From Tubiluchus corallicola (lineage: Eukaryota > Animalia > Priapulida): DNA of 26,468 nt. Position numbers and translations under genes: made by a program. The DNA lies in NCBI GenBank assembly GCA_030141605.1, contig JAQGDQ010001121.1:1-26468 (forward strand). Direction: 5' to 3'. Shown piece by piece: positions 1 to 25,090 of this stretch. The notes beneath the pieces are model-generated. The model was given only the letters and a program-made list of their open reading frames with translations, was not told where the DNA came from and searched no databases. How positions within the stretch are numbered: the stretch's first letter is position 1; each line of letters opens with the position of its first letter.

Positions 1-157
1 TTCATTTTCCACATTGCATCTTACAATTAACATTAAAATACAGATAATTTTCCATTTGAGTAAATATAAATATAAATATGAATAAATGCAGTATTATCAA
101 GAAATTACAGAATGCGGGATACATGTGCAAATTTCATTACAGAATAATTTTTTGATG

Positions 158-204
158 CATACAGTTTGAGCCTAAAAGCATAGCTTGACAGGCCAAACTG
201 TATG
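158..204 (-). other. LINE 3'-UTR stem-loop
   Basis: catacagtttg (158-168) pairs with caaactgtatg (194-204), with inner GCCT/AGGC and AAGC/GCTT pairs; lies downstream of the ORF2 stop. Confidence 0.7.
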
Positions 205-384
205 TGGAAATCTTAAAAAAAAATGGGGGGGGAGTAGTGAATGAAAGATGAAATGGAGCGAGAACTAAGAAAAACTCTGATCATGGTTACAAAGTGTTCG
301 GTATCCTGTTAAACATAGTCACGTTATATTAAGATTACTGTAGGAAAAAATGCTGGTTATTACCATTATTAAATTGTGTTACTC

Positions 385-2970
385 TTAATACTTTTGAAAT
401 ATTTCTTTTCTGACGGTTTTTTTAAAAGTTAAAAGGGAGTGACTACATTTCGATTTGCGGCTTAGTCTGTTCCATAGGACTGGCCCCATATAGCTAATGA
501 AGTGTTTCGCCATATTTGTTCTACAACGTCTTGGTATATATTCATTATGTCTGGTATTGTATTTTTTTACATTTATCTTGACTGGATTTTCAAAAAAAGT
601 TGGAAATAAGTTGTTGTTGGTTCTATACATGTATATACATCCACTAAAATTAATAACATCATCCAGAAGTAATATTTGACATTGCTTAAAATGTGTAGTA
701 GTAATTGTGCTCCTTTTGTCTAGTTTGAAGATGACACGTAAAAATTTTCGTTGTAAAACTCTTAAAGCATTCTAAATTTGTAGTATAAGTAAAGACCCAT
801 AATGTTGTGCAGTAATTTAAATATGATAATATTAAACTGTTGTATAATGTTAGAAGATGTTCGGTGTTCAGAAAGTTTTTAATATATGAGATGATACCTA
901 TATTTTTTGATATTTTTAATCTGATCATGAATATATATGGTCGCCAGTCTAGATGCTCATTCAGTATTAATCCCAGAAATTTCAGTTCTTTTACACGTGT
1001 AATTCTTTTGTGGTCTATTATTAAATCGTGGTTCGCCTGAATTGGTTTATTTCGGGATCTAAACAGAATGTATTTTGTTTTTGATGAATTTAGTGAAAGT
1101 TTATTTGTTTTGAACCATATAGCTAGATCATGTAGAACTGTATTGATGTAATCAATATTGGTTTCTATTTTATGAAAGCTAAAAAAATGCTTGTATCATC
1201 AGCAAACTGAAATAAATTGTGATTTTTAACACAAAATTTGATGTCATTAATATAAATTAGAAAAAGTAGTGGCCCAAGGACTGAGCCTTGGGGCACGCCA
1301 CATTTGATTGGTGCTACATCTGAAAAAGCGTTATTGTATTTTACTGTCTGAGTGCGCCCTGTTAAATAATTCTTTAGACACATATGAGGCAAACCTCTGA
1401 TACCTTAATAGTACAACTTATTTAGCAGAATGTCATGGTTTACTGTATCAAATGCTTTTGATAGGTCGCAAAATACTCCGTAGGATGTGCCATTTTTTTC
1501 AACAGTATTAATGATATTTTCTATAATTTTTGTTAAGGCCATTTCAGTGGAGCTACCTTTTCTGAAACCAAATTGTTTATTACTCAGAATTCTTTTTTTT
1601 ATTAAATAATGAGATAACTGATTGTAAAAAACTTTTTCTAATATTTTTGAAATAAAAGGCAATAAGGACACTGGTCTATAATTGTTCAGAGACATGGGAT
1701 CATCTGATTTAAACAAAGGAACAATAATTGATTCTTTCAATTTCGTTGGTATTTCACCTGTAAGAAAAGATAAATTAATTAAATATTGCAAAGGTTTAGA
1801 GATGTAGTCGATGGTGTCTATTACGACTTTAGGTAACATTTTGTCCTTACCAGGACCTTTATTCCGATTAAACGATTTACAAGTATTTATTATATCATTT
1901 TCTGTTACTGCACTAATAAAAAAGCTTTGTCGGTAGGTACCTTTAAGATATGTACATGGATTTATGTTTGTGTTTTCAATTTGTTCTGATAATATTGGTC
2001 CAATATTGGCAAAGCAATCATTAAAAGCATTTGCCACCTCTACATTATTTTTAATTAATTTATTGTTTATGAACAACGTAATGGGTCGATTTTGTCTTTC
2101 TTTATGCATAATTTCTTTCATTGTATCCCATGTCTTTTTTATGTTATCTTTAACTGTCATCAATCTATCCCTATAATACTGACATTTTGATGCTTTTATA
2201 ACTGTATTAAGTTCATTTCTATATCGTTTGTATTCTACTTCAGATACGTCATTATTTGTCTTGTTCACCAGAGAACGATACATTTTATTTTTCCGCTTAA
2301 CACTTACTAAAAGTGCTGTAGTGATCCAAGGTTTTTTTGCTACTTGATGACTGTTATTGCTTTTCTGTAGTTTAATATGTTTATTATAAATATCAGAAAG
2401 CTTAGTATGAAATAAATTGTATGCGTCTTCAGTATTAGTTGCAGAATATAAATCTGACCAGTCACATTGATTTAAATCTTGGATAATTTTGTTTTTTATA
2501 TGAACATTATAAATATGTTTGCGCACGTATTCCTTACTGTATGTTTCAATTTTGAGATCAATAATTAGAAAAATTGGGAGGTGATCTGTTATATCTGTTA
2601 GAAAAATACCTGATTTATACTTATAATCTAGTGCATTAGTAAATATATTATCAATTAGTGTTGCTGAATAAGGCGTAATTCTTGTTGGTCTTGTAACAGT
2701 AGGAAACAGATAATTGGTCAGCATTGTGTCTAAAAAGTGTCCGGTTTCGTTCTGAGAAGCGTGGTTTATTAAATTTATATTATAGTCTCCTAGTAAGAAA
2801 ATATGTTTGTTTTGTCTATTAACAATTGCCATAGTGTTCTGTATTTTGTCTGTAAAATGGTTAGGATTTTCACCAGGTGGTCTATATATTACTCCCATTA
2901 TTGTATTTTTATTCTTGCTGCGTAATTCAATGAAAAGTGATTCTATGTCTGGATCATTGATGTGGCATAG
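385..2970 (-). pseudogene. Disrupted LINE ORF2 (endonuclease + reverse transcriptase)
   Basis: ORF 1405-2898 continues in frame through one TAA (LYY*GIRG) into 1165-1392. Frameshifts near 1180 and 760 link the pieces 686-928 and 385-630; the natural stop is at 385. Confidence 0.9.
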
Positions 2971-2971
2971 G

Positions 2972-4790
2972 TTTTACCTAACACTTGAGAACTAAAAATG
3001 AACACAACAGGTAAACAATTAATCCAAGTTTACATAATGAACTGCAGCAGTAGGCGATATGAGAATAAAACACAACTCGCACATTTTGCGCCATTCACAA
3101 AAAGAGAAAACTACAATATGGGAAATCGAAAACATGTGAATGGGACTCAAAAACAACCCACCAGGACCACTACAAACATCAAGGGACATAGTCAAACAAA
3201 TTTCAAACACAGAAACAGATGCAGTGCTCTCACTGCTTCATTCATTACATCATTTCATTCTGAAGCAGTGTCTTCTTTATCATACGATTCACTTCAAATT
3301 TTCAGATTATTTTAATTACTTTTTTTCTTTCACTGTGTGGGACAATCTAACAAGCCCTGCTTTTTGATTGCCGGCAACACATTTACATTTGTAACTAGGT
3401 GAACAGTGTGTGAGGCTATTCTTGTGCAGAAACAATAAAAATTTATTTGTACTATGTTCATTGTAGGCCCTTTCGCCATATATTGTACATGAAACTATTG
3501 TAAATGTGTCATGTTAAATAAATGACTTATGAGAGGGCGATAATGTACCACCAATGATAGTTGGGTATTAAGAATTAAGCCGTGCTTCAAAAAAATATAG
3601 AAGACCGCCACTACCTTGACATTTTGACCATCAATTGCAGTATAAAATTAATATAACGCTCTAATTAAAATGCTAAGTGCAAGGTTGAAGCCAATCCAAT
3701 CACCTCTGCATGCAGTATGGTGAGAGCCAAGCTGGCTTTTGCAATGCTCCACAATTCTAGTACAAAGACAATGACCGGCACACACCACTTGAAGAACTTG
3801 CCAAGTCGTTCACACTGCTAGTTCATTTTCAGAGGGGAATCTCTACGTCTGAACATCATCATCGTCTTAGGTGCTTTCATTATGTAACTGTTGGGCATGG
3901 AGTAGGGCACTAACAGAAGTAGAGCAATAAGTGCACATAGGCTAGTCCAAGTAGGACGTGTAGTACATGGGCTAGCTCAAATAGTATGCATCATATATGG
4001 ACTGCCCAAGTAGGACACCAGACATTTGTAAATTGTCAAGCGCTATATCCACCATTATTATAAAGTTACTTTTTTAATACAAAAGACAGCTATTCTAGTT
4101 TATTTAAAGAACTTCAAGTTTTGTAAATGTCGCTAAAATATAACACGAGTTAAAAATATTTAAGACGAGCAAGTTAGAGGGCAGCTCTGTCTGTCTAAGA
4201 GGGCCCATAATTTCATTAGCATATAGGCCCTAAAGGTTATAATCCAGCCCTGATTACAGAGCGCATCTTAGTTGTGTGGATCAAATCGGTACTGATGTCG
4301 TTTGCAACAGTCGTAAAGCAAAGCCATGGAAATACATGTTGACAGTCGTGTACAAATACGTGTTGACAGTTGTGTACAGATACGTGTTGACAGCCGTGTA
4401 CAGATTTGTTAATTGATAGTTGTGAATGATTATTATCTATGAAAAGTCAAAAGAAAATGTATATACCGTGTGATACATTTGAAAATCATTGATGGCTCAT
4501 TGCTTAACAAAAGCGTCTGTAGCTTTTACTCGATAAATGAATCTGGTTTGGCAGGTTCTTCAAGTTTTAGTTCATGGTTTCTAACACGTTCATTTTTGGA
4601 TATAGTAGTAGTAGTTAAAACAAGAAGTGTGTAGTACGCTTTTAATCTATGTAGCTTGAGATGTACCATCTCTGTTGCTAACATCGGAACATGTTTTTAT
4701 ATACTAATGCCACTGCTTTCTCAAGTCGTCAAATCCAAGCTGTTTTGCAACGTTTGCAAATGGCTACTGTAGGTGGCAGCAGCATTGTAG
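2972..4790. repeat. Segmental duplication block X (paralogue of 22468-24349)
   Basis: Collinear similarity from ttttacctaacacttgagaac onward: 2972-3960 vs 22468-23180 and 4330-4790 vs ~23820-24349, with indels. Confidence 0.9.
4330..4407 (+). repeat. 24-bp minisatellite, ~3 copies (gacagtcgtgtacaaatacgtgtt)
   Basis: Tandem units read directly; the paralogous site has ~8 copies at 23786-23972. Confidence 0.85.
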
Positions 4791-5109
4791 TGAACAGTGG
4801 CTCTATACATGCTGTTTTATTATAATCTCTTCCATTTGTAAACATGATTTAAACTCTCCGTTAAAGCAAGTGAACCACAAACGTTACAACTGCATCTGGG
4901 TTCTTGTAAAATCCGAAGTTTAAATCTGGAAATTCATATTTTTATGTTGATTAATTAGAACTTGGTCATAGTAAAAATAAATTAGTATTGTGCATATAAA
5001 AAAATTTCTGTCCTTTTTTGTTTGAAAATCGAAGTTGAAACCCAAAGACTTAATTACTTATTTTGTTTACAATTTTGTCGTAAAGGACTTATGATTTTAA
5101 TTTTATTCC

Positions 5110-5845: not shown

Positions 5846-6498
5846 GTTGTCATTACTTACGAAGATTTTTACCTTATACCTATTTTACAAAGACAATTGC
5901 TTTAGCAAATGAATATTTTTCTAGTCAAAATAAATACTCCTATTTTTCCAACTCTAACTTCATAAATTGAACCTAAGCTGCAATGTTGGTTGTTGTTCAT
6001 TTGTTCGTCAGTCAGTGGATAAGTCAGCATGCCAGCCAGTTGGTTAATCAAGCAGTCTGCCATAAGTCACTCCATTAGCCAGTTAGTTGGTTTATTTACT
6101 TTTTCTTTGTATTGTCTTTTGTTTATTTACTCATAGATTTAAGTAATCCACGACTAACTGACTGACCAACAGCTAGTGTGTTTTAATGGTTGATGCCGCA
6201 AGTGTTCAAACAGAACATTACAGTCACAGTCAGTAAGTATTTATTTCACTTTGTTTTCTCTTTTGTCCATTGAGTCATTCATTCACATAATTAATGAATA
6301 ACTGACTAAGAGATTTAGTGTTTTAATGGTTGACCAGCAATCATTTAGTTTGTTTTTACAACAGATGACTATCATGATTACAAGGTGCCCCATAAATGCA
6401 TTGACTCAGTACAACTTGACCTGAATGCTTGATTTACACTGAAATGATTAAATTGTAATTTATCTACACCAAGGTTAACATGCTGCCCACTGCCATGT

Positions 6499-7572
6499 CT
6501 ACGCTGTATGAGTGTTCACATGCCTGACAAGATTACTTTTCCAAGAAAACGATTTGTCACATAAGTCACATTTGTGGGGTTTCAATCCAGTGTGAGTGTT
6601 CATGTGCGTGAGAAGATTACTTCGCTGAGCAAATGATTTGTCACACAAGTCACATTTGTGAGGTTTCAATCCAGTGTGAGTGTTCATGTGCGTGAGAAGA
6701 CTATATCTCGCAGAAAATGATTTGTCACATAAGTCACATTTGTGGGGTTTCATTCCAGTATGAGTTTTGATGTGACTGAGAAGATGATCACGGCGAGAAA
6801 ATGATTTGACACATAAGTCACATTTGTGGGGTTTCATTCCAGTGTGAGTGTTCATGTGCTTGAGAAGATTACCTCGCTTAGCAAATGATTTGTCACATAA
6901 GTCACATCTGTGGGGTTTCATTCCAGTATGTGTGTTCATGTGACTGAGAAGATGACCTCGCTGAGAAAATGACTTGTCACATAAGTCACATTTGTGGGGT
7001 TTCATTCCAGCATGAGTGTTCATATGCTTGCAAAGAGTACTTCGGTGAGAAAATGATTTGTCACATAAGTCACATCTGTGGGGCTTCATTCCAGTATGTG
7101 TGTTCATGTGACTGAGAAGATTACCTCGCCGAGAAAATGATTTGTCACATAAATCACATTTGTGAGGTTTCATTCCAGTATGAGTGTTCATGTGGCTGAG
7201 AAGATGACCTTGCTGAGCAAATGATTTGTCACATAAGTCACATTTGTGGGGTTTCAATCCAGTGTGAGTGTTCATGTGCCTGAGAAGATCACCTCGCTGA
7301 GCAAATGATTTTTCACATAAGTCACATTTGTGGGGTTTCATTCCAGTATGAGTGTTCATGTGCGTGAGAAGATGACTTCGCTGAGCAAATGATTTGTCAC
7401 ATAAGTCACATTTGTGGGGCTTCATTCCAGTATGAATGTTCAGGTGCGTGAGAAGATGACTTTGCTGAGAGAATGATTTGTGGCACTGGTCACACCTGTG
7501 AGGTTTCATACCTGTGTAAAGAGTGCTTATAAAGTGTACTTTGATGGCGAAATGATTTCTTGCACTGACCAC
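6499..7572 (-). CDS. C2H2 zinc-finger array protein ZNF-A (12 tandem fingers); terminal coding exon, first in-frame ATG at 7509
   Basis: 12 intact CxxC-x12-HxxxH fingers with TG(M/L)KPH linkers at 84-bp period and no internal stops. The listed start is GTG, so the true 5' boundary is uncertain (ATG 7509 or a splice acceptor at 7511). Confidence 0.9.
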   Translation of the reverse strand: MVSARNHFAIKVHFISTLYTGMKPHRCDQCHKSFSQQSHLLTHLNIHTGMKPHKCDLCDKSFAQRSHLLTHMNTHTGMKPHKCDLCEKSFAQRGDLLRHMNTHTGLKPHKCDLCDKSFAQQGHLLSHMNTHTGMKPHKCDLCDKSFSRRGNLLSHMNTHTGMKPHRCDLCDKSFSHRSTLCKHMNTHAGMKPHKCDLCDKSFSQRGHLLSHMNTHTGMKPHRCDLCDKSFAKRGNLLKHMNTHTGMKPHKCDLCVKSFSRRDHLLSHIKTHTGMKPHKCDLCDKSFSARYSLLTHMNTHTGLKPHKCDLCDKSFAQRSNLLTHMNTHTGLKPHKCDLCDKSFSWKSNLVRHVNTHTA

Positions 7573-7673
7573 AGCTACAAGCTTTAATGGAGTTTTTGCA
7601 TAACTGTGAGACTAGCTTCCCCAAGAGCAGAGATCACAGCTCCGAGACTTCAGTTCAGTGCAGGAGGTGACAC
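7512..7673 (-). other. Degenerate relic zinc fingers downstream of a strong splice acceptor (exon start 7673)
   Basis: Acceptor ttttagttttcctttctttttgatacAG; then TELKSRSCDLCSWGS* in the finger frame and CGQCKKSFRHQSTLYKH in a shifted frame. Same arrangement at 17160-17321. Confidence 0.6.
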
Positions 7674-8149
7674 CTGTATCAAAAAGAAAGGAAAACTAAA
7701 ATTTACAGTTAAAAATGCAACATCCTTATTGAATATCAATATTAAGACTATGTAACAGGTTTAAGATTTAAGAACACCATCTAGAAACATTAGTTTATTG
7801 ACACAAAAGCAATTTGCAATTACAAATATCTACATAAAGAATCTACAATTCTACATTTTTGAATGTTAATAAGTGAAAACGGAGCAAATAGCTAAGAAAT
7901 AATTTCATTTTCTGACCATTTTTTCTCTTTTATCCTTTCTTATTCTTCCTATTTTTGTACTCCTTATACAAAGTCGTGTGCTTACAATAATGCAAGGGTG
8001 GCAATTGTCCCTCTGCCTCCCCCACCCCCTGTTGCTTTTACATGAACTCTAAATTACTAAGCAGAAGTATCAAAATAATCAACCAATAAATTAAGTGAAA
8101 ATTCAGCTTTGGAACTTGATCGTTCACACAGCTGCTTTTACTGACTGGT

Positions 8150-10865
8150 ATAAGGACTGATACGATTTTTTATTCAAGGACTTCCAAATTTTTTATATGT
8201 TTGTGAAGCGATGCAATAGAATTATCATCTGCATAGTTATGTAGATAGCATGAGTCAAAGAATCTGAAACTATCATTCAAATGCAAGTTAAAAAGCAGTG
8301 GTCCAAGAATGTACACTTGAGGCACCCCATTTTTTATTAACTTCCTGGCATTATAACTGCTCTACTTTTATTCTCTGGTATCTATCAAAAAGGAAAAAAA
8401 CCGATCATAAGGAGGCTATTGGGTTACAAGTTATAGAGTACAAGTTTGTTTAGAGGTGGGGAAGGCTATCAAATGCATTAATCAAGTCCATTAATATTGT
8501 ACCTACATAGTGGAGGTGGGGGAGGATATCAAATGCATTAATCAAGTCCATTAATATTGTACCTACATAGTGGAAGTGGGGAAGGCTATCAAATGCATTA
8601 ATCAAGTCCATTAATATTGTACCTACATAGTGGAAGTGGGGAAGGCTATCAAATGCATTAATCAAGTCCATTAATATTGTACCTACATAGTGGAAGTGGG
8701 GAAGGCTATCAAATGCCTTAGTTAAGTACATTAATATTGTACCTACGTAGTGGAGGTGGGGAAGGCTATCAAATGCCTTAGTCAAGTCCATTAATATTGT
8801 ACCTACATAGTGGAGGTGGGGAAGGCTATCAAATGCCTCAGTTAAGTCCATTAATACTGTACCTACATAGTGGAAGTGGGGAAGGCTATCAAATGCCTTA
8901 GTTAACTCCATTAATATTGCACCTACATAGTGGAGGTGGGGAAGGCTATCAAATGCCTTAGTCAAGTCCATTAATATTGTACCTACATAGTGGAGGTGCG
9001 GAAGGCTATCAAATGCCTTAGTTAAGTCCATTAATATTGTACCTACATAGTGGAGGTAGGAAGGCTATCAAATGCCTTAGTTAAGTCCATTAATATTGTA
9101 CCTACATAGTGGAGGTAGGAAGGATATCAAATGCCTCAGTTAAGTCCATTAATATTGTACCTACATAATGGAGGTGGGGAAGGCTATCAAATGCCTTAGT
9201 CAAGTCCATTAATATTGTACCTACATAGTGGAGGTGGGGAAGGCTATCAAATGCCTTAGTCAAGTCCATTAATATTGTACCTACATAGTGGAGGTGGGGA
9301 AGGCTATCAAATGCCTTAGTTAAGTCCATTAATACTGTACCTACATAGTGGAAGTGGGGAAGGCTATCAAATGCCTTAGTTAACTCCATTAATATTGCAC
9401 CTACATAGTGGAGGTGGGGAAGGCTATCAAATGCCTTAGTCAAGTCCATTAATATTGTACCTACATAGTGGAGGTGCGGAAGGCTATCAAATGCCTTAGT
9501 TAAGTCCATTAATATTGTACCTACATAGTGGAGGTGGGGAAGGCTATCAAATGCCTTAGTTAAGTCCATTAATATTGTACCTACATAGTGGAGGTAGGAA
9601 GGATATCAAATGCCTTAGTTAAGTCCATTAATATCGTACCTACATAGTGGAGGTGGGGAAGGCTATCAAATGCCTTAGTTAAGTCCATTAATATCGTACC
9701 TACATAGTGGAGGTGGGGAAGGCTATCAAATGCCTTAGTTAAGTCCATTAATATTGTACCTACATAGTGGAGGTAGGAAGGCTATCAAATGCCTTAGTTA
9801 AGTCCATTAATATTGTACCTACATAGTGGAGGTAGGAAGGCTATCAAATGCCTTAGTTAAGTCCATTAATATTGTACCTACATAGTGGAGGTGGGGGAGG
9901 ATATCAAATGCCTTAGTTAAGTCCATTAATATCGTACCTACATAGTGGAGGTGGGGAAGGCTATCAAATGCCTTAGTTAAGTCCATTAATATCGTACCTA
10001 CATAGTGGAGGTGGGGAAGGCTATCAAATGCCTTAGTTAAGTCCATTAATATCGTACCTACATAGTGGAGGTGGGGAAGGCTATCAAATGCCTTAGTTAA
10101 GTCCATTAATACTGTACCTACATAGTGGAGGTGGGGAAGGCTATCAAATGCCTCAGTTAAGTCCATTAATATTGTACCTACATAGTGGAAGTGGGGAAGG
10201 CTATCAAATGCCTCAGTTAAGTCCATTAATATTGTACCTACATAGTGGAAGTGGGGAAGGCTATCAAATGCCTTAGTCAAGTCCATTAATATTGTACCTA
10301 CATAGTGGAGGTGGGGAAGGCTATCAAATGGCTTAGTCAAGTCCATTAATATTGTACCTACATAGTGGAAGTGGGGAAGGCTATCAAATGCCTTAGTTAA
10401 CTCCATTAATATTGCACCTACATAGTGGAGGTGGGGAAGGCTAACAAATGCCTTAGTCAAGTCCATTAATATTGTACCTACATAGTGGAGGTGGGGGAGG
10501 ATATCAAATGCCTTAGTTAAGTCCATTAATATCGTACCTACATAGTGGAGGTGGGGAAGGCTATCAAATGCCTTAGTTAAGTCCATTAATATTGTACCTA
10601 CATAGTGGAGGTGGGGAAGGACATCAAATGCCTTAGTTAAGTCCATTAATATTGTACCTACATAGTGGAGGTGGGGAAGGCTATCAAATGCCTTAGTTAA
10701 GTCCATTAATATTGTACCTACATAGTGGAGGTGGGGAAGGCTATCAAATGCCTTAGTTAACTCCATTAATATTGTACCTACATAGTGCTTCTGGGCGGGT
10801 GCTTCTCTCCAAACTTCTACTAATTTCAGCAGCGCATCTCGACAGACACGTTTCTGCCCTGACAA
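8150..10865 (-). pseudogene. Decayed LINE reverse-transcriptase fragment (CR1/L2 group) interrupted by its own tandem expansion
   Basis: Before the array: CRDALLKLVEVWREA..QKHYVGTILM. After it: NKLVLY, DRYQRIKV, GVPQVYILGPLLFNLHLND (from 8328) and HNYADDNSI (YADD 8224-8235), with stops and frameshifts. Confidence 0.88.
8453..10787 (-). repeat. 60-bp tandem repeat x39 derived from RT motif A (HYVGTILMDLTKAFDSLPHL)
   Basis: 2335 bp = 39x60 - 5, with five 59-bp units. Plus-strand unit: gaggtggggaaggctatcaaatgccttagttaagtccattaatattgtacctacatagtg. Confidence 0.97.
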
Positions 10866-12825
10866 GCTTGTAACTACTTCGAAATATTATCAATCGCAAA
10901 ACAATGAAAAAATAACTTAGGACTAAAAGCCATACAAAAAATGCAAAGAATTTTTTTGAATTGTTGTGTATGAACGACTAAAAGCATTCGTACGCTCGCA
11001 CAGCATCCACTAATGTCAGCATAAGATGATGTCATTCTTGCACAACCATAGCCGCTTGGTTAGCTGTTTATTTTTTCAATAAAACACGTATTATAGCATC
11101 CGTGAAGGTTATTGAATATTACAATAAGTGTCCTTGTATAGCAAAATATTCCACTAGGTATGAATTTCTAGATATGTGTACATTCCTGTTCTCCTATTCA
11201 ACACGATCATTTTTGGTACCTGTTTCAGTTCTACTTTATTTCTAAGCCAGTGGATGTTGAAAAAACCAAAATTAATATTATGAGAAAATAGCTTCAAAGT
11301 TTGTGTTACAATTTTCAGTAAAGTTGCATAGCAACAGAAGGAGGAGGTTTGGGGGTTTACTATCAAGTATAATTCTCTTTCTTGCAATTCGCATAAAGGT
11401 ATAACCAGTGAACTTATTTTTGATGAATTCTGAGCACTTTACTGCTTACCTCTGCATTCTGTGTTAATTTAAGTAAAGGTAAATCATAATGATTAATTTT
11501 GTCGTATGAGGTTTTAAAATTTGTTTGACTAATTTTACATTTCTTTTTACATAGTTTTAAATATTTTTTCAACTATACTAAATATACTTGCAGAGTAGTT
11601 TTGAAGTATTTCGCCAGGTAACATAATTAATTACAGGTGAGAATATTGCAAGCGTTGGTCTATAATACTAATAAAAATATAATTAAAGCTTGTGGAAATA
11701 ACTATGCCAGTTTTATAAATAATCTGCTATTTAAGTGCATAAGTGCACTCGCTCCAGGGTATCATTTCCAGGTAAACTAACCAACTGCTGTAATTACAGG
11801 TGATACAAACCCAACATTTTATGCCTTTTAAACAAGGCACAACTATAATTAGTTTTGTATAATGGTGAAACTTTAAAATTAAACAAAAACTATCAAACCA
11901 TCTGCCAAAATTGATAAAAATGTCGTAGAAATAATATGTGCCATTATGTGACTTTTCAGTATTGAGTGCAAAATCTGTAATGGTCCCAGGATGATCAACC
12001 CTAACCTAAAAATTATTAAAACTTTACAAAACCCAAAGAAAACTAAATCTCGAAGGAACTATGACGTAAAAAAGCGTAAAAACATTAAATTATTTTCTTA
12101 AGCAGCACCAATGCATATCCTAGTTTATGCCATGACTTTGTTCAACTTTGTGTCAGTAAGCAAATAAGTAAGCATCTTCATCTAACACCTTTTTTTACTT
12201 AAAAACAGTGCACAAAACAATAATATGATTATAATGATTACTGTATTCAAGACATAGTTTTAAACTGACTGGCAATAAGGGAACAAAGAACTAAAGTAAG
12301 GTTATCAAGATCAACCATCCCATGTAAGTAATGTTGTTATTAGACAAATAATAAAAATTTAATCACTAGAATCTGGTCTCAAACAATTTGTCACAGGCCT
12401 TTTTTACAAAGACATACTTACCCTATTAAGATATAGGGACCTAGAATTGAACTCGGAACCCTTCTCAATAATGCCTCAAAGCAATTGTTTGTTGATGCAT
12501 CTAATGGTTGGCCCTCGCGGGTATTTTGCAGTTTAGGCGGTTCTTTTTTAGCGTCTTCCCTGACTGCCCAAATCAAAGGTATCGCTAAAACCAGTTCTCC
12601 AATAAAAAGATGTGTCGTTTATCTACACACTGACTAAAGAAAATGAAAATATGCCGCACATTAAATAACGTTTTTTTAAAGTAGGTGTCAGCGTAGCGAA
12701 AACGAACAAAAATTAGGCATTTTACCGAAATATTTTCACTTTCGAGTCTCCAGAATGTAACTATTTTAATCTATCACTCTGCACCACAGCACAGAAACAA
12801 GCAATAAATTAATAAAAAAAGTGTG

Positions 12826-12905
12826 ACTTACCTAACCTCCGCCATTTGCGGATTCTGTGTTTAGGTGCTTATTGACTTTACTGTGCTGCTTGTGGCGTCA
12901 TCTCA
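12826..12905 (-). promoter_or_regulatory. Candidate first exon and promoter of ZNF-A
   Basis: Minus strand cgcaaATGGCGGAGGTTAG|GTAAGT: YY1/Kozak-like AAATGGCGG, perfect splice donor (GT at 12831-12830), CRE-like TGACGCCA at 12893-12900. Confidence 0.5.
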
Positions 12906-16062: not shown

Positions 16063-17220
16063 CTATGCTGTATGAGTGTTCATGTGCCTGACAAGATTGC
16101 TTTTCCAAGAAAACGATTTGTCACATAAGTCACATTTGTGGGGTTTCAATCCAGTGTGAGTGTTCATGTGCGTGAGAAGATTACTTCGCTGAGAAAATGA
16201 TTTGTCACATAAGTCACATTTGTGAGGTTTCATTCCAGTATGAGTGTTCATGTGCACGAGAAGATTACCTCGTAGAGAAAATGATTTGTCACATAAGTCA
16301 CATTTGTGGGGTTTCATTCCAGCATGAGTGTTCATGTGCCTGAGAAGACTACCTCGCTCAGAAAATGATTTGTCACATAAGTCACATTTGTGAGGTTTCA
16401 TTCCAGTATGAGTGTTCATGTGCCCGCGAAGATGATCACGGCGAGAAAATGATTTGACACATAAGTCACATTTGTGGGGTTTCAATCCAGTATGAGTGTT
16501 TGTGTGACTGAGAAGATTACCTCTCTGAGAAAATGCTTTGTCACATACGTCACATTTGTAAGGTTTCATTCCAGTATGAGTGTTCATGTGCCTGAGAAGA
16601 CTATCTCGCTCAGAAAATGATCTGTCACATAAGTCACATTTGTGGGGTTTCATTCCAGTATGAGTGTTCATGTGATTGAGAAGATGGCCTCGCTGAGAAA
16701 ATGATTTGTCACATAAGTCACATTTGTGGGGTTTCATTCCAGTATGAGTGTTCATGTGAGTGACAAGATGACCTTGCTGAGAAAATGATTTGTCACATAA
16801 GTCACATTTGTGGGGTTTCAATCCAGTATGAGTGTTCTTGTGCGTGAGAAGATTACCTCGCTGAGAAAACGATTTGTCACATATGCCACATTTGTGGGGC
16901 TTCATTCCAGTATGAGTGTTCTTGTGCTTGAGAAGATCACCTCGCTGAGAAAATGATTTGTCACATAAGTCACATTTGTGGGGTTTCATTCCAGTATGAG
17001 TGTTCATGTGCGTGACAAGATTACCTCGCTGAGAAAATGACTTGTCACATAAGTCACATTTGTGGGGCTTCATTCCAGTATGAGTGTTCAGGTGCACGAG
17101 AAGATGACTTTGCTGAGAGAACGATTTGTGGCACTGGTCACACCTGTGAGGTTTCATACCTGTGTAAAGAGTGCTTATAAAGAGTACTTTGATGGCAAAA
17201 TGATTTCTTGCACTGACCAC
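16063..17220 (-). CDS. C2H2 zinc-finger array protein ZNF-B (13 tandem fingers), paralogue of ZNF-A; first in-frame ATG at 17157
   Basis: 13 intact fingers with TG(M/L)KPH linkers; flanks 15795-16063 and 17157-17640 are nearly identical to 6230-6499 and 7509-8000. Confidence 0.9.
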   Translation of the reverse strand: MVSARNHFAIKVLFISTLYTGMKPHRCDQCHKSFSQQSHLLVHLNTHTGMKPHKCDLCDKSFSQRGNLVTHMNTHTGMKPHKCDLCDKSFSQRGDLLKHKNTHTGMKPHKCGICDKSFSQRGNLLTHKNTHTGLKPHKCDLCDKSFSQQGHLVTHMNTHTGMKPHKCDLCDKSFSQRGHLLNHMNTHTGMKPHKCDLCDRSFSERDSLLRHMNTHTGMKPYKCDVCDKAFSQRGNLLSHTNTHTGLKPHKCDLCVKSFSRRDHLRGHMNTHTGMKPHKCDLCDKSFSERGSLLRHMNTHAGMKPHKCDLCDKSFSLRGNLLVHMNTHTGMKPHKCDLCDKSFSQRSNLLTHMNTHTGLKPHKCDLCDKSFSWKSNLVRHMNTHTA

Positions 17221-17606
17221 AGCTACAAGCTTTAAAGGCGTTTTTGCATAACTGTGAGACTAGCTTCCCCAAGAGCAGACATCACAGCTGCGAGACTTCA
17301 GTTCAGTGAAGGAGGCGACACCTGTATCAAAAAGAAAAGAAAACTAAAATTTACAGTTAAAAATGCAATATCCTTATTGAATATCATTATTAAGACTATG
17401 TAACAGGTTTAAGATTTAAGAACACCATCTAGAAACATTAGTTTATTGACACAAAACCAATTTGCAGTTACAAATATCTACATATAGAATCTACAATACT
17501 ACATTTTTGAATGTTAATAAGTAAAGCAAATAGCTAAGAATTAATTTCATTTTCTGACCATTTTTTCTCTTTTATCCTTTTGTATTTCTTCCTATTTTTG
17601 TACTCC

Positions 17607-19322
17607 TTATAAAAAGTCATGTGCTTACAATAATGCAAGGGTGGCAATTGTCCCTCTGCCTCCCCCACCCCCTGTTATACAAAGTCGGTGTGCTTACAAT
17701 AATGCAAGGGTAGCAATTGTCCCTCTGTCTCCCTCACCCCCTGTTATGCAAAGTCGGTGTGCTCACAATAATGCAAGGGGGGCAATTTCCCTCTGCCTCC
17801 CCCACTCCCTGTTATACAAAGTCTGTGTGCTTAAATAATGCAAGGGCGGCAATTGTCCCTCTGCCTCCCTCACCCCCTGTTATACAAAGTCTGTGTGCTT
17901 ACAATAATGCAAAGGTGGCAATTGTCCCTCTGCCTCCCCCACCCCCTGTTACACAAAGCTAGTGTGCTTACAATAATGCAAGGGTGGCAATTGTCCCTCT
18001 GCCTCCCCACCCCCTGTTATACAAAGTCGTGTGCTTATAATAATGCAAGGGTGGCAATTGTCCCTCTGCCTCTCTCACCCCCTGTTATACAAAGCTGGCG
18101 TGCTTATAATAATGCAAGGGTGGCAATTGTCCCTCTGCCTCCCCACCCCCTGTTATACAAAGTCGTGTGCTTATAATAATGCAAGGGTGGCAATTGTCCC
18201 TCTGCCTCCCCACCCCCTGTTATACAAAGTCGTGTGCTTATAATAATGCAAAGGTGGCAATTGTCCCTCTGCCTCCCCCACCCCCTGTTACACAAAGCTA
18301 GTGTGCTTACAATAATGCAAGGGTGGCAATTGTCCCTCTGCCTCCCCCACCCCGTGTTATACAAAGTCGGTGTGCTTATAATAATGCAAGGGTGGCAATT
18401 GTCCCTCTGCCTCTCTCACCCCCTGTTATACAAAGCTGGTGTGCTTACAATAATGCAAGGGTGGCAATTGTCCCTCTGCCTCCCCCACCTCCTGTTACAC
18501 AAAGCTGGCGTGCTTATAATAATGCAAGGGTGGCAATTGTCCCTCTGCCTCCCCCACCCCGTGTTATACAAAGTCGGTGTGCTTATAATAATGCAAGGGG
18601 GGCAAATGTCACTCTGCCTCCCCCACCTCCTGTTACACAAAGCTGGCGTGCTTATAATAATGCAAGGGTGGCAATTGTCCCTCTGCCTCCCCCACCCCGT
18701 GTTATACAAAGTCATGTGCTTATAATAATGCAAGGGTGGCAATTGTCCCTCTGCCTACCCCACCTCCTGTTACACAAAGCTGGCGTGCTTATAATAATGC
18801 AAGGGGGGCAAATGTCACTCTGCCTCCCCCACCTCCTGTTACACAAAGCTGGCGTGCTTATAATAATGCAAGGGTGACAATTGTCCCTCTGCCTCCCCCA
18901 CCCCGTGTTATACAAAGTCGGTGTGCTTACAATAATGCAAGGGGGGCAATTGTCCCTCTGCCTCCCCCACCCTGTGTTATACAAAGTCGGTGTGCTTACA
19001 ATAATGCAAGGGTGGCAATTGTCCCTCTGCCTCCCCCACCCCGTGTTATACAAAGTCGGTGTGCTTATAATAATGCAAGGGTGGCAATTGTCCCTCTGCC
19101 TCCCCCACTCCCTGTTATTCAAAGTCGGTGTGCTTACAATAATGCAAGACTGGCAATTGTCCCTCTGCCTCCGCCACACCCTGTTATACAAAGCTGGTGT
19201 GCTTACAATAATGCAAGGGTGGCAATTGTTCCTCTGCCTCCCCCACCCCCTGTTATACAAAGCTGGTGTGCTTACAATAATGCAAGGGTGGCAATTGTCC
19301 CTCTGCCTGCCCCACCCCTGTT
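17607..19322 (+). repeat. 69-bp (67-69) minisatellite x25
   Basis: Unit ttatacaaagtcggtgtgcttacaataatgcaagggtggcaattgtccctctgcctcccccaccccctg; a single monomer sits at the paralogous site 7964-8033. Confidence 0.95.
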
Positions 19323-20130: not shown

Positions 20131-21463
20131 TTAAGCCATACGCTGTGTTAAATTGTGTCTGAAAATAGTGTCCCATACTGGAAAAATCGGGGCATGTTTA
20201 TTAAGGGTGGTTTCAAATGATTCCAAGAAATGGGAAAAAGTATTATTTACATTAAGTTGACTATTGAAAATATTAGAAAGTGAATGTCCCAAATCGCTCA
20301 GAAAATTCGCAGGAATAAATCTGTTAGTATCTCTTAATTGTATTTGAGACTTACTTTTGCTTGCATAGGAAGAGTTAAAAATTGCAAAGATAGGCAGATG
20401 GTCAGCCACTTCATACTGAATGATGCCAGCAGTGATGGGATTTTGAAACTCATTAGTATAAATATGATCAATTAAGGTTTGTGAGTTGTTAGTAATGCGA
20501 GTTGGTTGAGTGATAACCGGATGAAACCTATTTGAGAACAACATAGTTGGCAACTGAAGAAATGTCTTCGTGTTGAAGTAAATTAATATTCATGTCCCCG
20601 CAAATAAAAGCTGTCCTACCTGACGAATTGATAAAGTTTAAGATCTTTTCCATTTCTTCATTAAAGTGACTGACAGATTTGTTGGTGTGCCTGTACACGA
20701 CGCCAAATAGTATAGGTGCTTTATTTCTTGAAGTTTTTATCTTGACCCATAAATCCTCTACAGCTATTCTGCTAACAGTGTGAGGTAAGTTGGATGTATA
20801 TTTTTCGCAGTTAAACTGAATTTCATTAATAACTTTAAATTCAAGATTTTTTTTAATATATAGACCTACCCCACCTGCAGCAGTAAGCGAATCTTTTCTA
20901 AGAAAAATATACTCTGGTATGTTATAGAAAAAGGGGGTATTTTCATGTAATCTTGTTTCTGTAATAGCTATGATGTCCGGAGGATTTTGAAAATGATCCA
21001 CTGTTTCAAGCACCTCACCAAAATAGCGGCCAAGACTGCATGTATTCATGTGCACAAAGCAAAAATCATTTGTATTGTTTTTTAATTTGGTGTCATGTTT
21101 TAGCGCATCTAAAGAATAATACTTACTAGAGTACTGTACTATATAATTATCTGGATCTTGAGAATCTTCACATATGGGTGGCGGCAATGAAGAAAGATTA
21201 GTATAAGTAGATAAGCTTATAGTAGAAACATTCGTGCTGAAAATAGTTGAGAAGTCCTCTTCATCGCAGCCCTGAAATGGAAGTAAAATGTTAATACAGT
21301 TTATACAGTAGTAAGGCTCACTACTATTGCCTAAATTACGAAATTCTAAAAGGGACAACGTTGAACATTTTAAGTGTCTCCAACAGAGACAAATATTACA
21401 TTGAATAGCACATTGAGTCGGCTTGCATTCGTGGTTACAAAACAAACAAGGAAATTTTGCCAT
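20131..21463 (-). pseudogene. LINE ORF2 N-terminal part: PHD finger (C4HC3) + APE endonuclease, one frameshift near 20540
   Basis: CLFC...CNIC..WRHLKC...YYCINC; DIIAITETRL, GGVGLYIK, GVVYRH, CGDMNINLL, PTRIT..TLIDHIYT, ADHLP, KHAP. Confidence 0.88.
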
Positions 21464-21508
21464 GAAGGACTTGAATTAAGTTTCAAAGATATTAAAATAT
21501 GAGACGGC

Positions 21509-22107
21509 CTATATATCAGTCAGGTCTTGCTCACAGTCTATCGTAAGTTTCTGGCTATTATCAGTGGCTCGCAGAAAAATCCCGCCGTTGACAGTCCAAA
21601 TGTGTGCAAAGTTGTGTTGCTTTTTGTAGTTGAGCGCTATCCGAAAGAGTTCACGTCGTCTCGGTGTCAGTGATTCACTAATGTAGATTTTACTGTCTGT
21701 ATAGCGAGAATAATCCAAGGTCGATGTGTTCCCTGCTCTCTTTCTCTCTCTGTACATTGTATCACGTTTGTCACGTTGGGTAAATATCGCAATAATTTTA
21801 GGGTAACCCTTTCTTGGCTTAGGGAGCCTGTGGGAGATACTAATTTCTTCTGGTGATACTGCAATTCCCATATTGCGGGCAACACTAAGAACTATTGCAT
21901 TTGTATTTTCGTGTTCAATTACCGGAGTTCCCGATATTTCGAGGCAGTCCCGACGACTGTACTGATCAAGTTTGTCGATCTCAATTGCATTTGTCTGTGC
22001 CAGTTTTTGTAGCTTGCTAACTGTTGCTTTAAGCGAGTTGTTTTCTGTTTTAAGTCTGGCAATGTCTTGATTGGCTGCATCAAGCTCAGATATTGAAACT
22101 GAGACTG
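21509..22107 (-). pseudogene. LINE ORF1 (coiled coil + RRM-like + C-terminal domain), 5'-truncated
   Basis: The frame of ORF 21509-21871 stays open upstream: SELDAANQDIARLKTENNSLKATVSKLQK...IDKLDQYSRRDCLEISGTP. Confidence 0.85.
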
Positions 22108-22450
22108 AATAAGATTAAAGTTAAAGAAAACTACAAGAATGAGTTTAAGGATCAGTTTGTGGGGAAGATGATGACACTACTGAACATATGCTTAAATGTG
22201 GAGAATGGAAAAAATTTTGAACTCAGATATATTAATGAACAGTGAAAAGGAAAGATTGCTAGAAATTAGAAATCTAGTGAACGAATGCATGGAATACAGG
22301 ATAGAGACAAACAAAGACATTAAACTGGGAAAAGACAGCTAAAAGAGCAGCGTTAGAGAAAAATAGACCTATAATAGTGTCCGCCTCTGATATGTGGACA
22401 GAGTCGAGTATCGCAATCGCAAAACAAACAAGGTTGTACTGAAAAAAATG
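22108..22450 (+). mobile_element. 3' fragment of a different LINE with a C-terminal CCHC knuckle remnant
   Basis: IKVKENYKN then (frameshifted) CGEDDDTTEHMLKC at 22158-22199, matching the C-x(7-8)-H-x3-C end of LINE ORF2 knuckles. Confidence 0.5.
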
Positions 22451-23368
22451 CAGAGAAATGTACAAGATTTTACCTAACACTTGAGAACCAAAAAAGAACA
22501 CAACAGGTAAACAATTCCAAACACAGAAACAAATAGAGTGCTCTCACCATAGCGCTCATACATTTTGCACCATTAGCAAAAAGTGAAACTACAATATGGG
22601 AAATCAGAAACATGAGAAAGGGACACAGAGAATGAACCCACCAGGACCACTACAAACATCGAGGGACATAGTCAAATAAATGTAAAACACAGAAACAGGT
22701 AGAGTGCTCTCATCAATTCATTCATTACATCATTACATCATTTCATTCTAAAGCACTAAATGTTTTCTTTATCATACGATTCACTTCAAATTTTCAGATT
22801 ATATATGCCCGCAACACATTTACATTTGTATATAGATGAGCTGTGTGTGAGGCTTTTCTTGCGCAGAAATAATAAAAACTTATTTGTATTATGAAACTAT
22901 TGTAAATGTGTAATGTGAAATAAATAACTTATGAGAGTATGGTGAGAGCCAAGCTGGCTTTTGCGATGCTCCCCAATTCTAGTACAAACACAATGAAGAA
23001 TGCACACACCACTTGAAGAAATTGCCAAATCGTTCACACTTGCTAGTTCACTTTCAGATCTACGTCTGAACATCATCATCATCTTAGGTGCTTCCGTTAT
23101 GCATACGTTGGGCGTGGAGTAGGGCACTAGCCGAAATAGGGCAATTGGTGCACATAGGCTAGCCCAAGTAGGACGCCTAGTGGATTCCTAACTGTGTACA
23201 AGTGAACAAAGGAAATGAGCACTATTTGGAATTTAAACAACCTCATGCTTTTTTATGGAGTGACAGTCCATGTGAACTACTGAAATCTTTCATTTGTGAA
23301 TCTAATGTTAATTGATTTAAAGTTTTCCTCTACGGGTTTAAGACAATAATTTCTATTTTGCTTTGCCC

Positions 23369-23630
23369 GATTCAAGTTAATAAATTAAGGATAGTTTAGT
23401 TTAGTTTTAGTTTATTTATTTACACTTTGCAATAATTTATTTATTCTCGATAATTTCTGTTCTCTAATCCAAGTACATCAGTGTTACCTGATTCAAGTTA
23501 ATAAATTAAGGATAGTTTAGTTTCGTTTTAGTTTATTTATTTACACTTTGCAATAATTTATTTATACTTGATAATTTCTGTTCTCTAATCCAAGTACATC
23601 AGTGTTAATTGATTCCAGTTAAGAAATTAA
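23369..23630 (+). repeat. 121-bp tandem duplication (~2.2 copies)
   Basis: gattcaagttaataaattaa starts at 23369, 23490 and (partial) 23611. Confidence 0.9.
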
Positions 23631-23785
23631 ACTTGAAAGGTATGTAATCTTGTTTATCATTTTATTGAACTTGATAAACTTGTGGCATTTTTAGTGACGG
23701 CTTGTAGATAAGATTAGTGGGGTCACTGCTTCAGTAAATTGTTACAAGTGAATCCCACAGTTCCGTGCAAGGATTCAAAGCTACG

Positions 23786-23972
23786 CACAGTCGTGTACAG
23801 ATACGTGCTGACAGTCATGTACAAATACATGTTGACAGTCGTGCACAGAAACGTGTTGACAGTCGTGTACAAATACGTGTTGACAGTCGTGTACAGATAC
23901 GTGTTGACAGTCCTGTACAAATACGTGTTCATAGTCATGTACAAATACGTGTTGACAGTCATGTACAGATTT
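23786..23972 (+). repeat. 24-bp minisatellite x8
   Basis: Unit gacagtcgtgtacaaatacgtgtt; accounts for the repetitive ORFs at 23723-24001. Confidence 0.92.
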
Positions 23973-24374
23973 GTAAATTGATACTTGTGAATGATTGTTA
24001 ACTATGAGAAGTCAAAGGAAAATGTATATACCGTGTGATGTGTTTGAAAACATTGATGGCCCATTGCTTAACAAAAGCATCTGTAGCTTTTACTCGATAA
24101 ATGAATCTGGTTTGGCAGGTGCTTCAAGTTTTAGTTCATGGTTTTTAACAAGTTCATTTTTGGATATTGTAGCAGTAGTTAATATAAGAAGTGTGTAATA
24201 CGCTTTTAATCTATATAGCTTGAGATGTACGATCTCTGTTGCTAACATCGGGACATGTTTTTTATATACTAATCCCACTGCTTTCTCAAAAAGAAGGTGT
24301 TTTGCAACGTTTGCAAACGGCTACTGTAGATGGCAGCCACATTGTAGTTTTTTTATTATTATTATCAATAATAG

Positions 24375-25090
24375 TAGTTCAGGTTCAGCAACCGAGACGA
24401 GCACACGTGTTTCAGGTTGCTCTATAAACTCAAACTGTATACTATATCGTACAGTAAAATAGAGTAAATTTAAATGTACAGGAAATATGCACTAAATGTT
24501 TGCGGGTTTTATTATGACAACTGGAAGTAATTGCCAAAAAGATATTCTATGATATTAACTACGTCTATGGTGTTGCTGGAAGAACTGATTTAATACAAGG
24601 AGTAACGTGTACTTGTCTGAATGATGTCGTCTGCTGAAGAAGGCAAGCTTATTATAGATGATGAGCAAATTGCGAATGAAATTAATAACTTAGAAATGAA
24701 CTCAAAAGTCAAGAAACGCTACAGTCTCAAGAAATTCTGCATGCGTGCATTAGTTATAAATTCAGTAATTCCGAAAGTCACAATCAAGCAAGTGAAAGAA
24801 GATGTCAACGAGATGCGTGAAGAAATTAAACAACTACAACAAAAGACGAATGACTTAGAACAATATAGTAGGAGATGCAGCGTTAGATTCTTTGATGTGC
24901 CAGAGCATAATGACGAGATCTTAAGTTGGATCACATTAATAAAAGCGGAATTGAAAGATGCCACACACATCTTACAGATCGTACAGGGAAGGTCAGTGGA
25001 AGGAAACACAGAACAATCTTTTGTAAATTGATTAGTTATGACTACAAACGAGATGCGAAACGATTAGTGGATGCGTGCATGAGGCACTAA
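24375..25090 (+). mobile_element. 5' fragment of another LINE (5' UTR + decayed ORF1)
   Basis: Coiled coil followed by DLEQYSRRCSVRFFDVPE in ORF 24621-25031; a shifted frame continues RTGKVSGRKHRTIFCKLISYDYKR. Confidence 0.7.

What the first reader, a model, noticed from the sequence alone, without database searches (positions are those of the whole stretch)
8453..10787. 39-copy satellite amplified in place from the catalytic motif A of a LINE reverse transcriptase, upstream of a zinc-finger exon
Seen: the 60-bp unit translates to HYVGTILMDLTKAFDSLPHL. The flanks supply the RT sequence before it (DALLKLVEVWREA) and after it (GVPQ..LGPLLFN, YADDN), so the array grew inside an RT relic. Units are near-identical while the flanking RT is riddled with stops. 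Known: xxDLxKAFD is RT motif A (domain 3), which carries a catalytic Asp and is among the most conserved LINE segments. Inference: the expansion post-dates decay of the element. Lying in the probable intron of a ZNF gene, it could act as a multimerised TE bait (small-RNA source, or a decoy/feedback binding array for TE-targeting zinc fingers). It may equally be a neutral minisatellite birth.
Basis: partly seen in the sequence, partly recalled or inferred. Interest (0 to 1): 0.85.

Follow-up and report, generated by a model that had tools for sequence, protein, structure and literature searches.

The report
Minisatellite born inside dead LINE fragment
Thirty-nine head-to-tail copies of a 60-base piece of a dead jumping gene's copying enzyme sit exactly where that piece belongs in the broken gene, next to a zinc-finger gene; it is likely a functionless repeat expansion of a well-known kind, and the sister gene copy next door has an unrelated repeat expanded in the matching region.

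Summary
8453-10787 is 39 units of 60 bp (five of 59 bp), in register inside an about 0.5-kb decayed fragment of a LINE reverse transcriptase; the unit covers motif A. Public read contigs bridge one junction, show about the expected unit depth, and show the unit as a closed loop in a second sample, so it is not an assembly artefact. Function is not supported. Unit variants look neutral (6 synonymous of 19 substitutions; catalytic Asp lost in 5 of 39). The paralogous zinc-finger unit next door lacks this fragment and has amplified an unrelated 69-bp unit 25 times; non-coding tandem repeats fill 21% of the window. A random unit from this relic would hold a catalytic Asp 26% of the time. Both large arrays sit on G-tracts, a likely seed. 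One weak lead remains: a crude code predicts that neighbour ZNF-B fingers 7-10 fit the unit, but 3 of 71 unrelated ZNFs do as well and the site is intact in only 20 of 39 units. TE-derived minisatellites are well described, and this scan noted the same thing six times in other genomes. Ordinary.

The parts
8453..10787 (-). Minisatellite, 39 units (34 x 60 bp, 5 x 59 bp), 22 unit types; unit = 20 codons over RT motif A
   Evidence: junction at 8452/8453 bridged by contigs in X1 and X2
10788..10886 (-). RT relic, part upstream of motif A; open frame with short deletions against intact relatives
   Evidence: tblastn to P0013, P0066, P0076 and others, best E 2e-8; X2 contig identical over 10762-11075
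8173..8452 (-). RT relic, part downstream of motif A, with the GVPQ and YADD motifs; stops, deletions and a frame break
   Evidence: Pfam RVT_1 E 7e-6; 1455 phmmer hits at E<=0.001; tblastn
8100..8172 (-). Probable further decayed RT sequence (KFQ-like motif in another frame)
   Evidence: by eye against intact relatives; not significant in tblastn
8057..12086 (.). 4.03-kb segment present in ZNF unit A and absent from paralog B; holds the relic and the array; the same 6 bp at both ends
6499..7511 (-). ZNF-A: open exon of 12 C2H2 fingers, downstream of the array on the same strand as the relic
7964..8033 (.). Single copy, in unit A, of the 69-bp unit that is amplified in unit B
17607..19322 (.). 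Parallel 25 x 69-bp G-tract minisatellite in the matching region of paralog B; no RT-like reading seen
16063..17159 (-). ZNF-B: paralogous open exon of 13 C2H2 fingers
12827..12845 (-). Candidate first-exon end (ATG followed by a GT donor-like site) that would make the array intronic in ZNF-A; untested
   Evidence: motif scan; inference

Best explanation
The array is 39 tandem copies of 20 codons of a decayed LINE reverse-transcriptase fragment, lying in register between the flanking codons, and it likely arose by one local duplication followed by neutral stepwise expansion, with no function. Step 1 (shown): a LINE fragment sits upstream of the finger exon in one unit of a duplicated ZNF family and has decayed. 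Step 2 (inferred): a 60-bp stretch was duplicated without flanking microhomology; its G-tract, among the most G-skewed spots of this AT-rich region, likely favoured the event or the later instability. Step 3 (pattern shown, mechanism inferred): the array grew and turned over by local copying such as unequal exchange or conversion, which leaves similar neighbours, a repeated three-unit block and a divergent end. That the unit covers motif A is likely chance plus detection bias: conserved motifs are the parts of a dead LINE that stay recognisable.
For: In-register flanks. Neighbouring units differ less than shuffled orders (2.66 vs 3.35 +/- 0.17; 0 of 5000 shuffles), units 22-24 recur as 30-32, and units 36-39 form a divergent end. 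Of 19 distinct substitutions 6 are synonymous against 21-27% expected (p 0.2-0.4); 5 of 39 units are frameshifted, 34 of 39 keep the Asp and 24 of 39 keep DLxKAFD. Paralog B lacks the segment and carries an unrelated 25 x 69-bp array whose unit is single in A. Eleven non-coding tandem arrays cover 5576 of 26468 bases. A random 60-bp window of the 512-bp relic holds the motif A Asp 13% of the time, a catalytic Asp 26%, and an Asp or GVPQ 36%. The two longest arrays have the two highest G4Hunter scores of the 11 (2.08 and 1.28; the other nine 0.08-0.92); 2.4% of 337 bins reach 1.0 (post hoc p about 0.02). Ten of 150 RT hits in public data carry internal tandem copies of RT motifs, e.g. P0014 and P0012 (phmmer favours repeats, and some may be assembly errors). 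In human, 7276 of 31472 minisatellites are TE-derived, 601 of them L1-associated, and only 6% show a known initiation signature (PMC3389668).
Against: A crude recalled recognition code gives ZNF-B fingers 7-10 a top match in the unit's G-tract: 0 of 150 base shuffles, 0.6% of 336 local bins, 0 of 300 finger-order shuffles and 0.7% of 1000 random draws from the pooled A+B fingers reach it. The unit occurs unchanged as a closed loop in a second sample from another study, which shows persistence across samples, though no more than a shared allele needs. The unit's G4Hunter score (1.0-1.3) is borderline, and nine shorter arrays in the window have no G-tract. No genome or RNA data were at hand to test uniqueness or expression.
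Confidence: 0.86

Rival explanations
1. The array is a multimerised binding platform for a zinc-finger protein of this cluster (ZNF-B fingers 7-10 are the candidate) that normally targets the LINE's motif A region, so it acts as a decoy or as a feedback or heterochromatin-nucleating element on ZNF-A.
For: Crude code match of ZNF-B to a 12-bp G-rich site in the unit. Metazoan ZNFs are predicted to bind TEs in octopus, weevil, sea urchin and zebrafish, and KZNFs also target satellites and other ZNF genes (PMC10547256, passages).
Against: Three of 71 unrelated ZNF proteins score as high on the unit, and 5 of 71 rank it in the top 1% of bins; two ZNFs and several window sizes were tried. The unrelated 69-bp unit scores as high with both ZNFs (13.2 and 13.8). 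The host ZNF-A shows no match (top 6-21%). The site is intact in 20 of 39 units and holds 29 of 75 unit-level differences in 20% of the unit (5 of the 29 are a double count at the 1-bp deletion). The code is recalled and approximate. Binding alone would not show selection.
Confidence: 0.05
2. The array is a small-RNA source: read through in ZNF-A pre-mRNA, it yields many copies of LINE-matching RNA that guide silencing.
For: It would be transcribed if it is intronic (inference); piRNA sources made of TE fragments are established (recalled).
Against: The relic lies sense to ZNF-A (both on the minus strand), so intronic RNA would not be antisense to the LINE. The array is direct, with no inverted pair in the window and no fold beyond shuffles (z 0.76 and 0.07). 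No close LINE copy showed up among the contigs laid at 80% identity over the RT core (tables cut), so a live target is not evident.
Confidence: 0.03
3. The duplication was made at insertion time, or in the active LINE family, by reverse-transcriptase slippage, and only the later growth is post-decay; the array could then be older than its homogeneity suggests.
For: PMC3389668 suggests that retrotransposition can start TE-derived repeats. A second, about 8% diverged version of the relic also runs into the unit on both sides, and its unit number could not be read.
Against: An in-frame duplication of motif A would likely cripple an active RT (inference). Summed unit depth in X1 and X2 is about 180-240 times the depth of the window-type flank, against 193 simulated for one 39-unit array, which leaves little room for many array-bearing copies (rough, since contig depth is not a copy number).
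Confidence: 0.05
4. The array is an assembly artefact or its length is badly inflated.
For: No contig spans the array; the upstream junction contig has only 26-27 letters inside the array, under the tool's 31-letter rule.
Against: The downstream junction is bridged (X2 8229-8512 with 0 differences; X1 8145-8496), a 60-bp 'goes back' joint is seen in X1, depth fits about 39 units, 22 ordered unit types exist, and X4 holds a 90-letter closed loop of the unit. X1-X3 may be the source sample, so only X4 is independent.
Confidence: 0.01

Closest known systems
TE-derived minisatellites of the human genome (Ahmed and Liang 2012, PMC3389668; parts 1-3 of 4 of the text read)
   Same: A 20-100 bp piece of a TE duplicated in place and grown by local copying; most lack flanking direct repeats or a truncated last unit, as here.
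   Different: Most human cases have 2-3 units and many come from Alu or LTR sequence; this has 39 units from ORF2 of an invertebrate LINE. Its mean unit identity (94%) is just under their 95% filter, which was measured differently.
Satellites derived from LINE ORF2: PROsat (Phodopus), Pvc20 (harbour seal), chicken HinfI/CR1 (as listed in review PMC9659126, passages only)
   Same: Tandem DNA that contains LINE ORF2 sequence.
   Different: Those are named satellite families; here one short array still lies in register in its parent copy.
G-rich unstable minisatellites (human CEB1; hypervariable minisatellite core)
   Same: A G-skewed tract in each unit; nine letters match the start of the human core and recombination sequences listed in PMC9069542 (passages). 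G4-dependent instability of CEB1 is reported (PMC2673046, listing and abstract start only).
   Different: The unit is only about 40% GC with a borderline G4 score; nothing shows G4 formation or hypermutability here, and the match to the human core is post hoc.
TE-targeting tandem C2H2 ZNF families (Wells et al. 2023, PMC10547256; passages)
   Same: Lineage-specific tandem ZNF paralogs with variable contact residues (best database identity 28-54%), amid LINE relics.
   Different: No effector domain, target or feedback element is shown for these two genes.

Membership tests
TE-derived minisatellite | Head-to-tail unit of 10-100 bp in many copies | tested here: met
   60 bp x 39
TE-derived minisatellite | Unit homologous to, and overlapping, a TE | tested here: met
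   Flank-unit-flank colinear with intact LINE ORF2 proteins
TE-derived minisatellite | Growth by local copying (neighbours most alike) | tested here: met
   0 of 5000 order shuffles as alike; repeated three-unit block
TE-derived minisatellite | Copy-number polymorphism (VNTR) | not testable with these tools
   Only contigs, none spanning the array
Direct-repeat (Haber and Louis) or slipped-strand initiation | 5-20 bp direct repeats at the edges, or a truncated terminal unit | tested here: not met
   No shared letters at either edge; 39.0 whole units. A small deletion next to the last unit may have erased a signature.
Non-LTR (LINE) reverse transcriptase relic | Motifs A, B' and C (YADD) in order at LINE spacing | tested here: met
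Non-LTR (LINE) reverse transcriptase relic | Clade (CR1, L2, Crack or Daphne group) | not tested
   No named clade references at hand; the CR1/L2-group label is recalled from the look of endonuclease-RT relatives P0013 and P0049. One cluster member is named from Hydractinia.
Coding tandem repeat | Frame kept and synonymous excess | tested here: not met
   5 of 39 units frameshifted; 6 of 19 substitutions synonymous
ZNF decoy or feedback array | Site for the resident ZNF, conserved across units | tested here: inconclusive
   Weak predicted match for ZNF-B, none for ZNF-A; site intact in 20 of 39 units
Small-RNA source locus | Small RNAs mapping to the array, antisense to live TE copies | not testable with these tools
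   No small-RNA data; relic is sense to the host gene

The most novel reading that the evidence does not exclude
A zinc-finger cluster has gained, inside one member, a 39-fold amplified copy of the LINE motif that a neighbouring member (ZNF-B, fingers 7-10) recognises, so the array titrates that protein or draws silencing onto the cluster: a TE-bait feedback element in an invertebrate. The G-tract arrays in both paralogs would then be repeated, selected gains of ZNF landing pads.
Probability: 0.04. Interest if true: 0.65.

Novelty: new member of a known kind. Interest (0 to 1): 0.17.

Why it matters
As it stands it is a clean, traceable example of minisatellite birth inside a transposon, with a built-in control: the sister gene unit amplified a different G-tract unit in the matching region. 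That is useful for studying what seeds minisatellites, and it warns gene predictors, since the array yields 167-355-residue false ORFs. It would matter more only if a cluster ZNF bound the array with a regulatory effect.

Tried and rejected
No whole genome is held, so genome-wide uniqueness could not be tested by BLAST. Homolog search with upstream flank plus one unit against longer proteins: 24 candidates, none scored; weak evidence only. ZNF-A homolog search gave only generic ZNFs at 28-54% identity and no N-terminal exon or lineage. No RNA holder was listed for 5900-12400, which says nothing about expression. X4 has no cover over the unique RT flanks and X5 next to none; holes prove nothing. 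Rfam: 0 matches. RNA folding of a two-unit stretch on both strands: not beyond shuffles. The sigma-70 scan is irrelevant to a eukaryote and was not used. Pfam hits on the array ORF (Erythro-docking and others, 0-1 passing stretches) are repeat-summing artefacts. The intact-looking LINE at 1-2973 is not the parent: tblastx gave one 22-residue match at E 4e-6 and the self-BLASTN no DNA match. Direct splicing of the candidate first exon to either candidate acceptor (7673 or 7511) gives a stop or the wrong frame (read), so the gene model is unresolved. A paper search for a satellite decoy in a ZNF intron with autoregulation returned one irrelevant review; some searches found reviews of TE-derived repeats and one unrelated paper; no search was made for an array of RT motif A as such, and supplements (such as the list of 7276 repeats) were not opened.

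Full report
Observation. Tandem Repeats Finder places a period-60 array of 39.0 copies at 8453-10787. Split into units, 34 are 60 bp and 5 are 59 bp; the minus strand of the majority unit reads HYVGTILMDLTKAFDSLPHL. There are 22 unit types, the mean pairwise difference is 5.6% and the mean distance to the majority is 3.2%. The downstream flank 8173-8352 hits Pfam RVT_1 at E 7e-6, under the gathering score, and finds 1455 proteins at E<=0.001 among 1.84 billion. With the array interior masked, full-length endonuclease-RT proteins from that search align in order to upstream flank plus first unit, last unit plus downstream flank, and the GVPQ-YADD stretch (for P0013: 599-645, 627-678, 688-739). 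P0076 aligns through DLSKAFD to solved R2 reverse transcriptases. The array therefore replaces one 20-codon stretch, in register, in a relic of about 0.5 kb. The downstream flank has three stops, short deletions and frame breaks; the upstream flank is open but has short deletions. I did not test the clade; CR1/L2 group is a recalled label.

Is it real? No genome is held. Six runs were listed, three from one sample that may be the source. An X2 contig is identical over 8229-8512 and an X1 contig covers 8145-8496, so the downstream junction is bridged; X1 also shows a 60-bp go-back joint. An X2 contig is identical over 10762-11075, with 26-27 letters inside the array, short of the 31-letter rule. 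Summed depth over the unit is about 180-240 times that of the window-type flank contig; a de Bruijn simulation of the window's own array predicts 193 in the middle bin. Contig depth is not a copy number, so this says only that the order of size is right and that many more such arrays in the genome are unlikely. X4, from another sample and study, holds a 90-letter contig of period 60 with no differences, a closed loop of the unit.

Context. The window holds two paralogous C2H2 units on the minus strand, with 12 and 13 fingers in open frames, 95-97% alike around the finger exons. Database relatives are generic ZNFs at 28-54% identity. Unit A has a 4.03-kb segment (8057-12086) that B lacks, with the same six letters at both ends; the relic and the array lie inside it. 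B instead has 25 copies of a 69-bp unit that is single in A. Depth over that 69-bp unit is several times what B's array alone would give, so other family members likely have it amplified too. Eleven non-coding tandem arrays fill 21% of the window. Contigs show further versions of this region: at least one relic copy about 8% diverged that runs into the unit on both sides, and one copy whose sequence matching 8118-8147 (27 of 30 letters, compared by eye) joins 11040, so it lacks the RT core. An intronic position is plausible, given a candidate ATG and donor at 12845-12827, but direct splicing does not give the finger frame and no RNA could test it.

Timing. The diverged relic copy shows no listed indel at the short deletions beside the array (the tables are cut), so these lesions likely predate a split of about 8%, deeper than the spread among units. 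This fits growth after decay, but turnover keeps arrays homogeneous at any age and the unit number in the second copy is unknown.

Mechanism. Neighbouring units are more alike than in any of 5000 shuffled orders, units 22-24 recur as 30-32, and the last four units form a divergent end: the pattern of local unequal exchange or conversion. The edges show no microhomology and no truncated unit, like most TE-derived repeats in PMC3389668. Of 19 distinct substitutions 6 are synonymous against 21-27% expected by chance (one of the 13 others is tied to the 1-bp deletion), five units are frameshifted, and five have lost the Asp: no coding constraint. Landing on a catalytic motif is unsurprising: 13% for motif A, 26% for a catalytic Asp and 36% with GVPQ, before the bias that conserved motifs are what a reader recognises. 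Ten of the 150 RT hits carry internal tandem copies of RT motifs, though the search favours repeats. A possible seed is base skew: the two long arrays have the two highest G4Hunter scores of the 11 arrays, and only 2.4% of 337 bins reach 1.0 (post hoc p about 0.02). Nine letters match the start of the human hypervariable core listed in PMC9069542. G4-driven instability is reported for CEB1 (PMC2673046, listing only). This step is inference, and the score is borderline.

Function. The relic is sense to ZNF-A, the window has no inverted repeat of 40 bp or more, a two-unit RNA folds no better than shuffles, and Rfam finds nothing. One result runs against my reading. With a crude recalled recognition code, ZNF-B fingers 7-10 fit a 12-bp site in the unit's G-tract better than 150 of 150 base shuffles, 300 of 300 finger-order shuffles, 99.3% of 1000 pooled-finger draws and 99.4% of 336 local bins. 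But 3 of 71 unrelated ZNFs (those with 8 or more fingers among 120 fetched) score as high, two proteins and four window sizes were tried, the unrelated 69-bp unit scores as high with both proteins, ZNF-A shows no match, and the site is intact in 20 of 39 units and more variable than the rest. ZNFs of other invertebrates are predicted to bind TEs (PMC10547256, passages), so I keep this as a low-probability lead.

Comparison and verdict. TE-derived minisatellites make up 23% of human minisatellites (PMC3389668), ORF2-derived satellites are listed in PMC9659126, and PMC12628747 reviews tandemisation of TE segments (passages). This scan's own unchecked notes list six arrays born from LINE RT motifs in other genomes; I had stated my reading before seeing them. 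The finding is a new member of a known kind, most likely neutral (0.86). Interest 0.17.

Noticed in passing
window 17607-19322 and 7964-8033: A 69-bp G-tract unit is single in ZNF unit A and 25-fold in unit B; read-contig depth suggests further arrays of it in other paralogs.
   Followed up: partly
window 7512-7673 and 17160-17321: Just before both finger exons lies a decayed finger-like stretch (C-x2-C ... H-x3-H in another frame) with a stop and frame break shared by A and B. Two acceptor-like sites flank it, and the second also reads as a donor.
   Followed up: partly
window 6499-7511 and 16063-17159: The finger arrays are 84-bp tandem repeats, 86-87% alike, with variation concentrated at contact positions; the first finger (except position 6) and the last two are shared between A and B while the middle ones differ.
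   Followed up: partly
window 1-2973: A second LINE on the minus strand, 5'-truncated in the endonuclease, with a 522-residue open stretch, a break at motif A and further open pieces; younger-looking than the relic and not its parent.
   Followed up: partly
window 20131-22114: 5' part of a third LINE in unit B: ORF1-like frame (Baculo_FP_2nd hit, E 3e-10) and a PHD-like plus endonuclease frame; another ORF1-like frame at 24621-25031 on the plus strand.
   Followed up: no
window 2969-4791 and 22465-24348: Duplicated blocks at 78-90% identity, with a 24-bp repeat in 3 versus 7.5 copies, suggest a third ZNF unit beyond the window start; a 52-codon minus-strand frame (read by eye, about 4520-4680) is open in both copies.
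   Followed up: no
window 10883-10987: A short dispersed-repeat fragment matched by several unrelated contigs in X2 and X4 marks the upstream limit of the RT relic.
   Followed up: no
proteins P0014, P0012, P0080, P0001: Database ORFs made of tandem copies of LINE RT motif B' (P0014, about 59-residue spacing; P0012, 32) or of the whole RT (P0001, 5 copies): independent RT-derived tandem repeats or assembly errors.
   Followed up: partly
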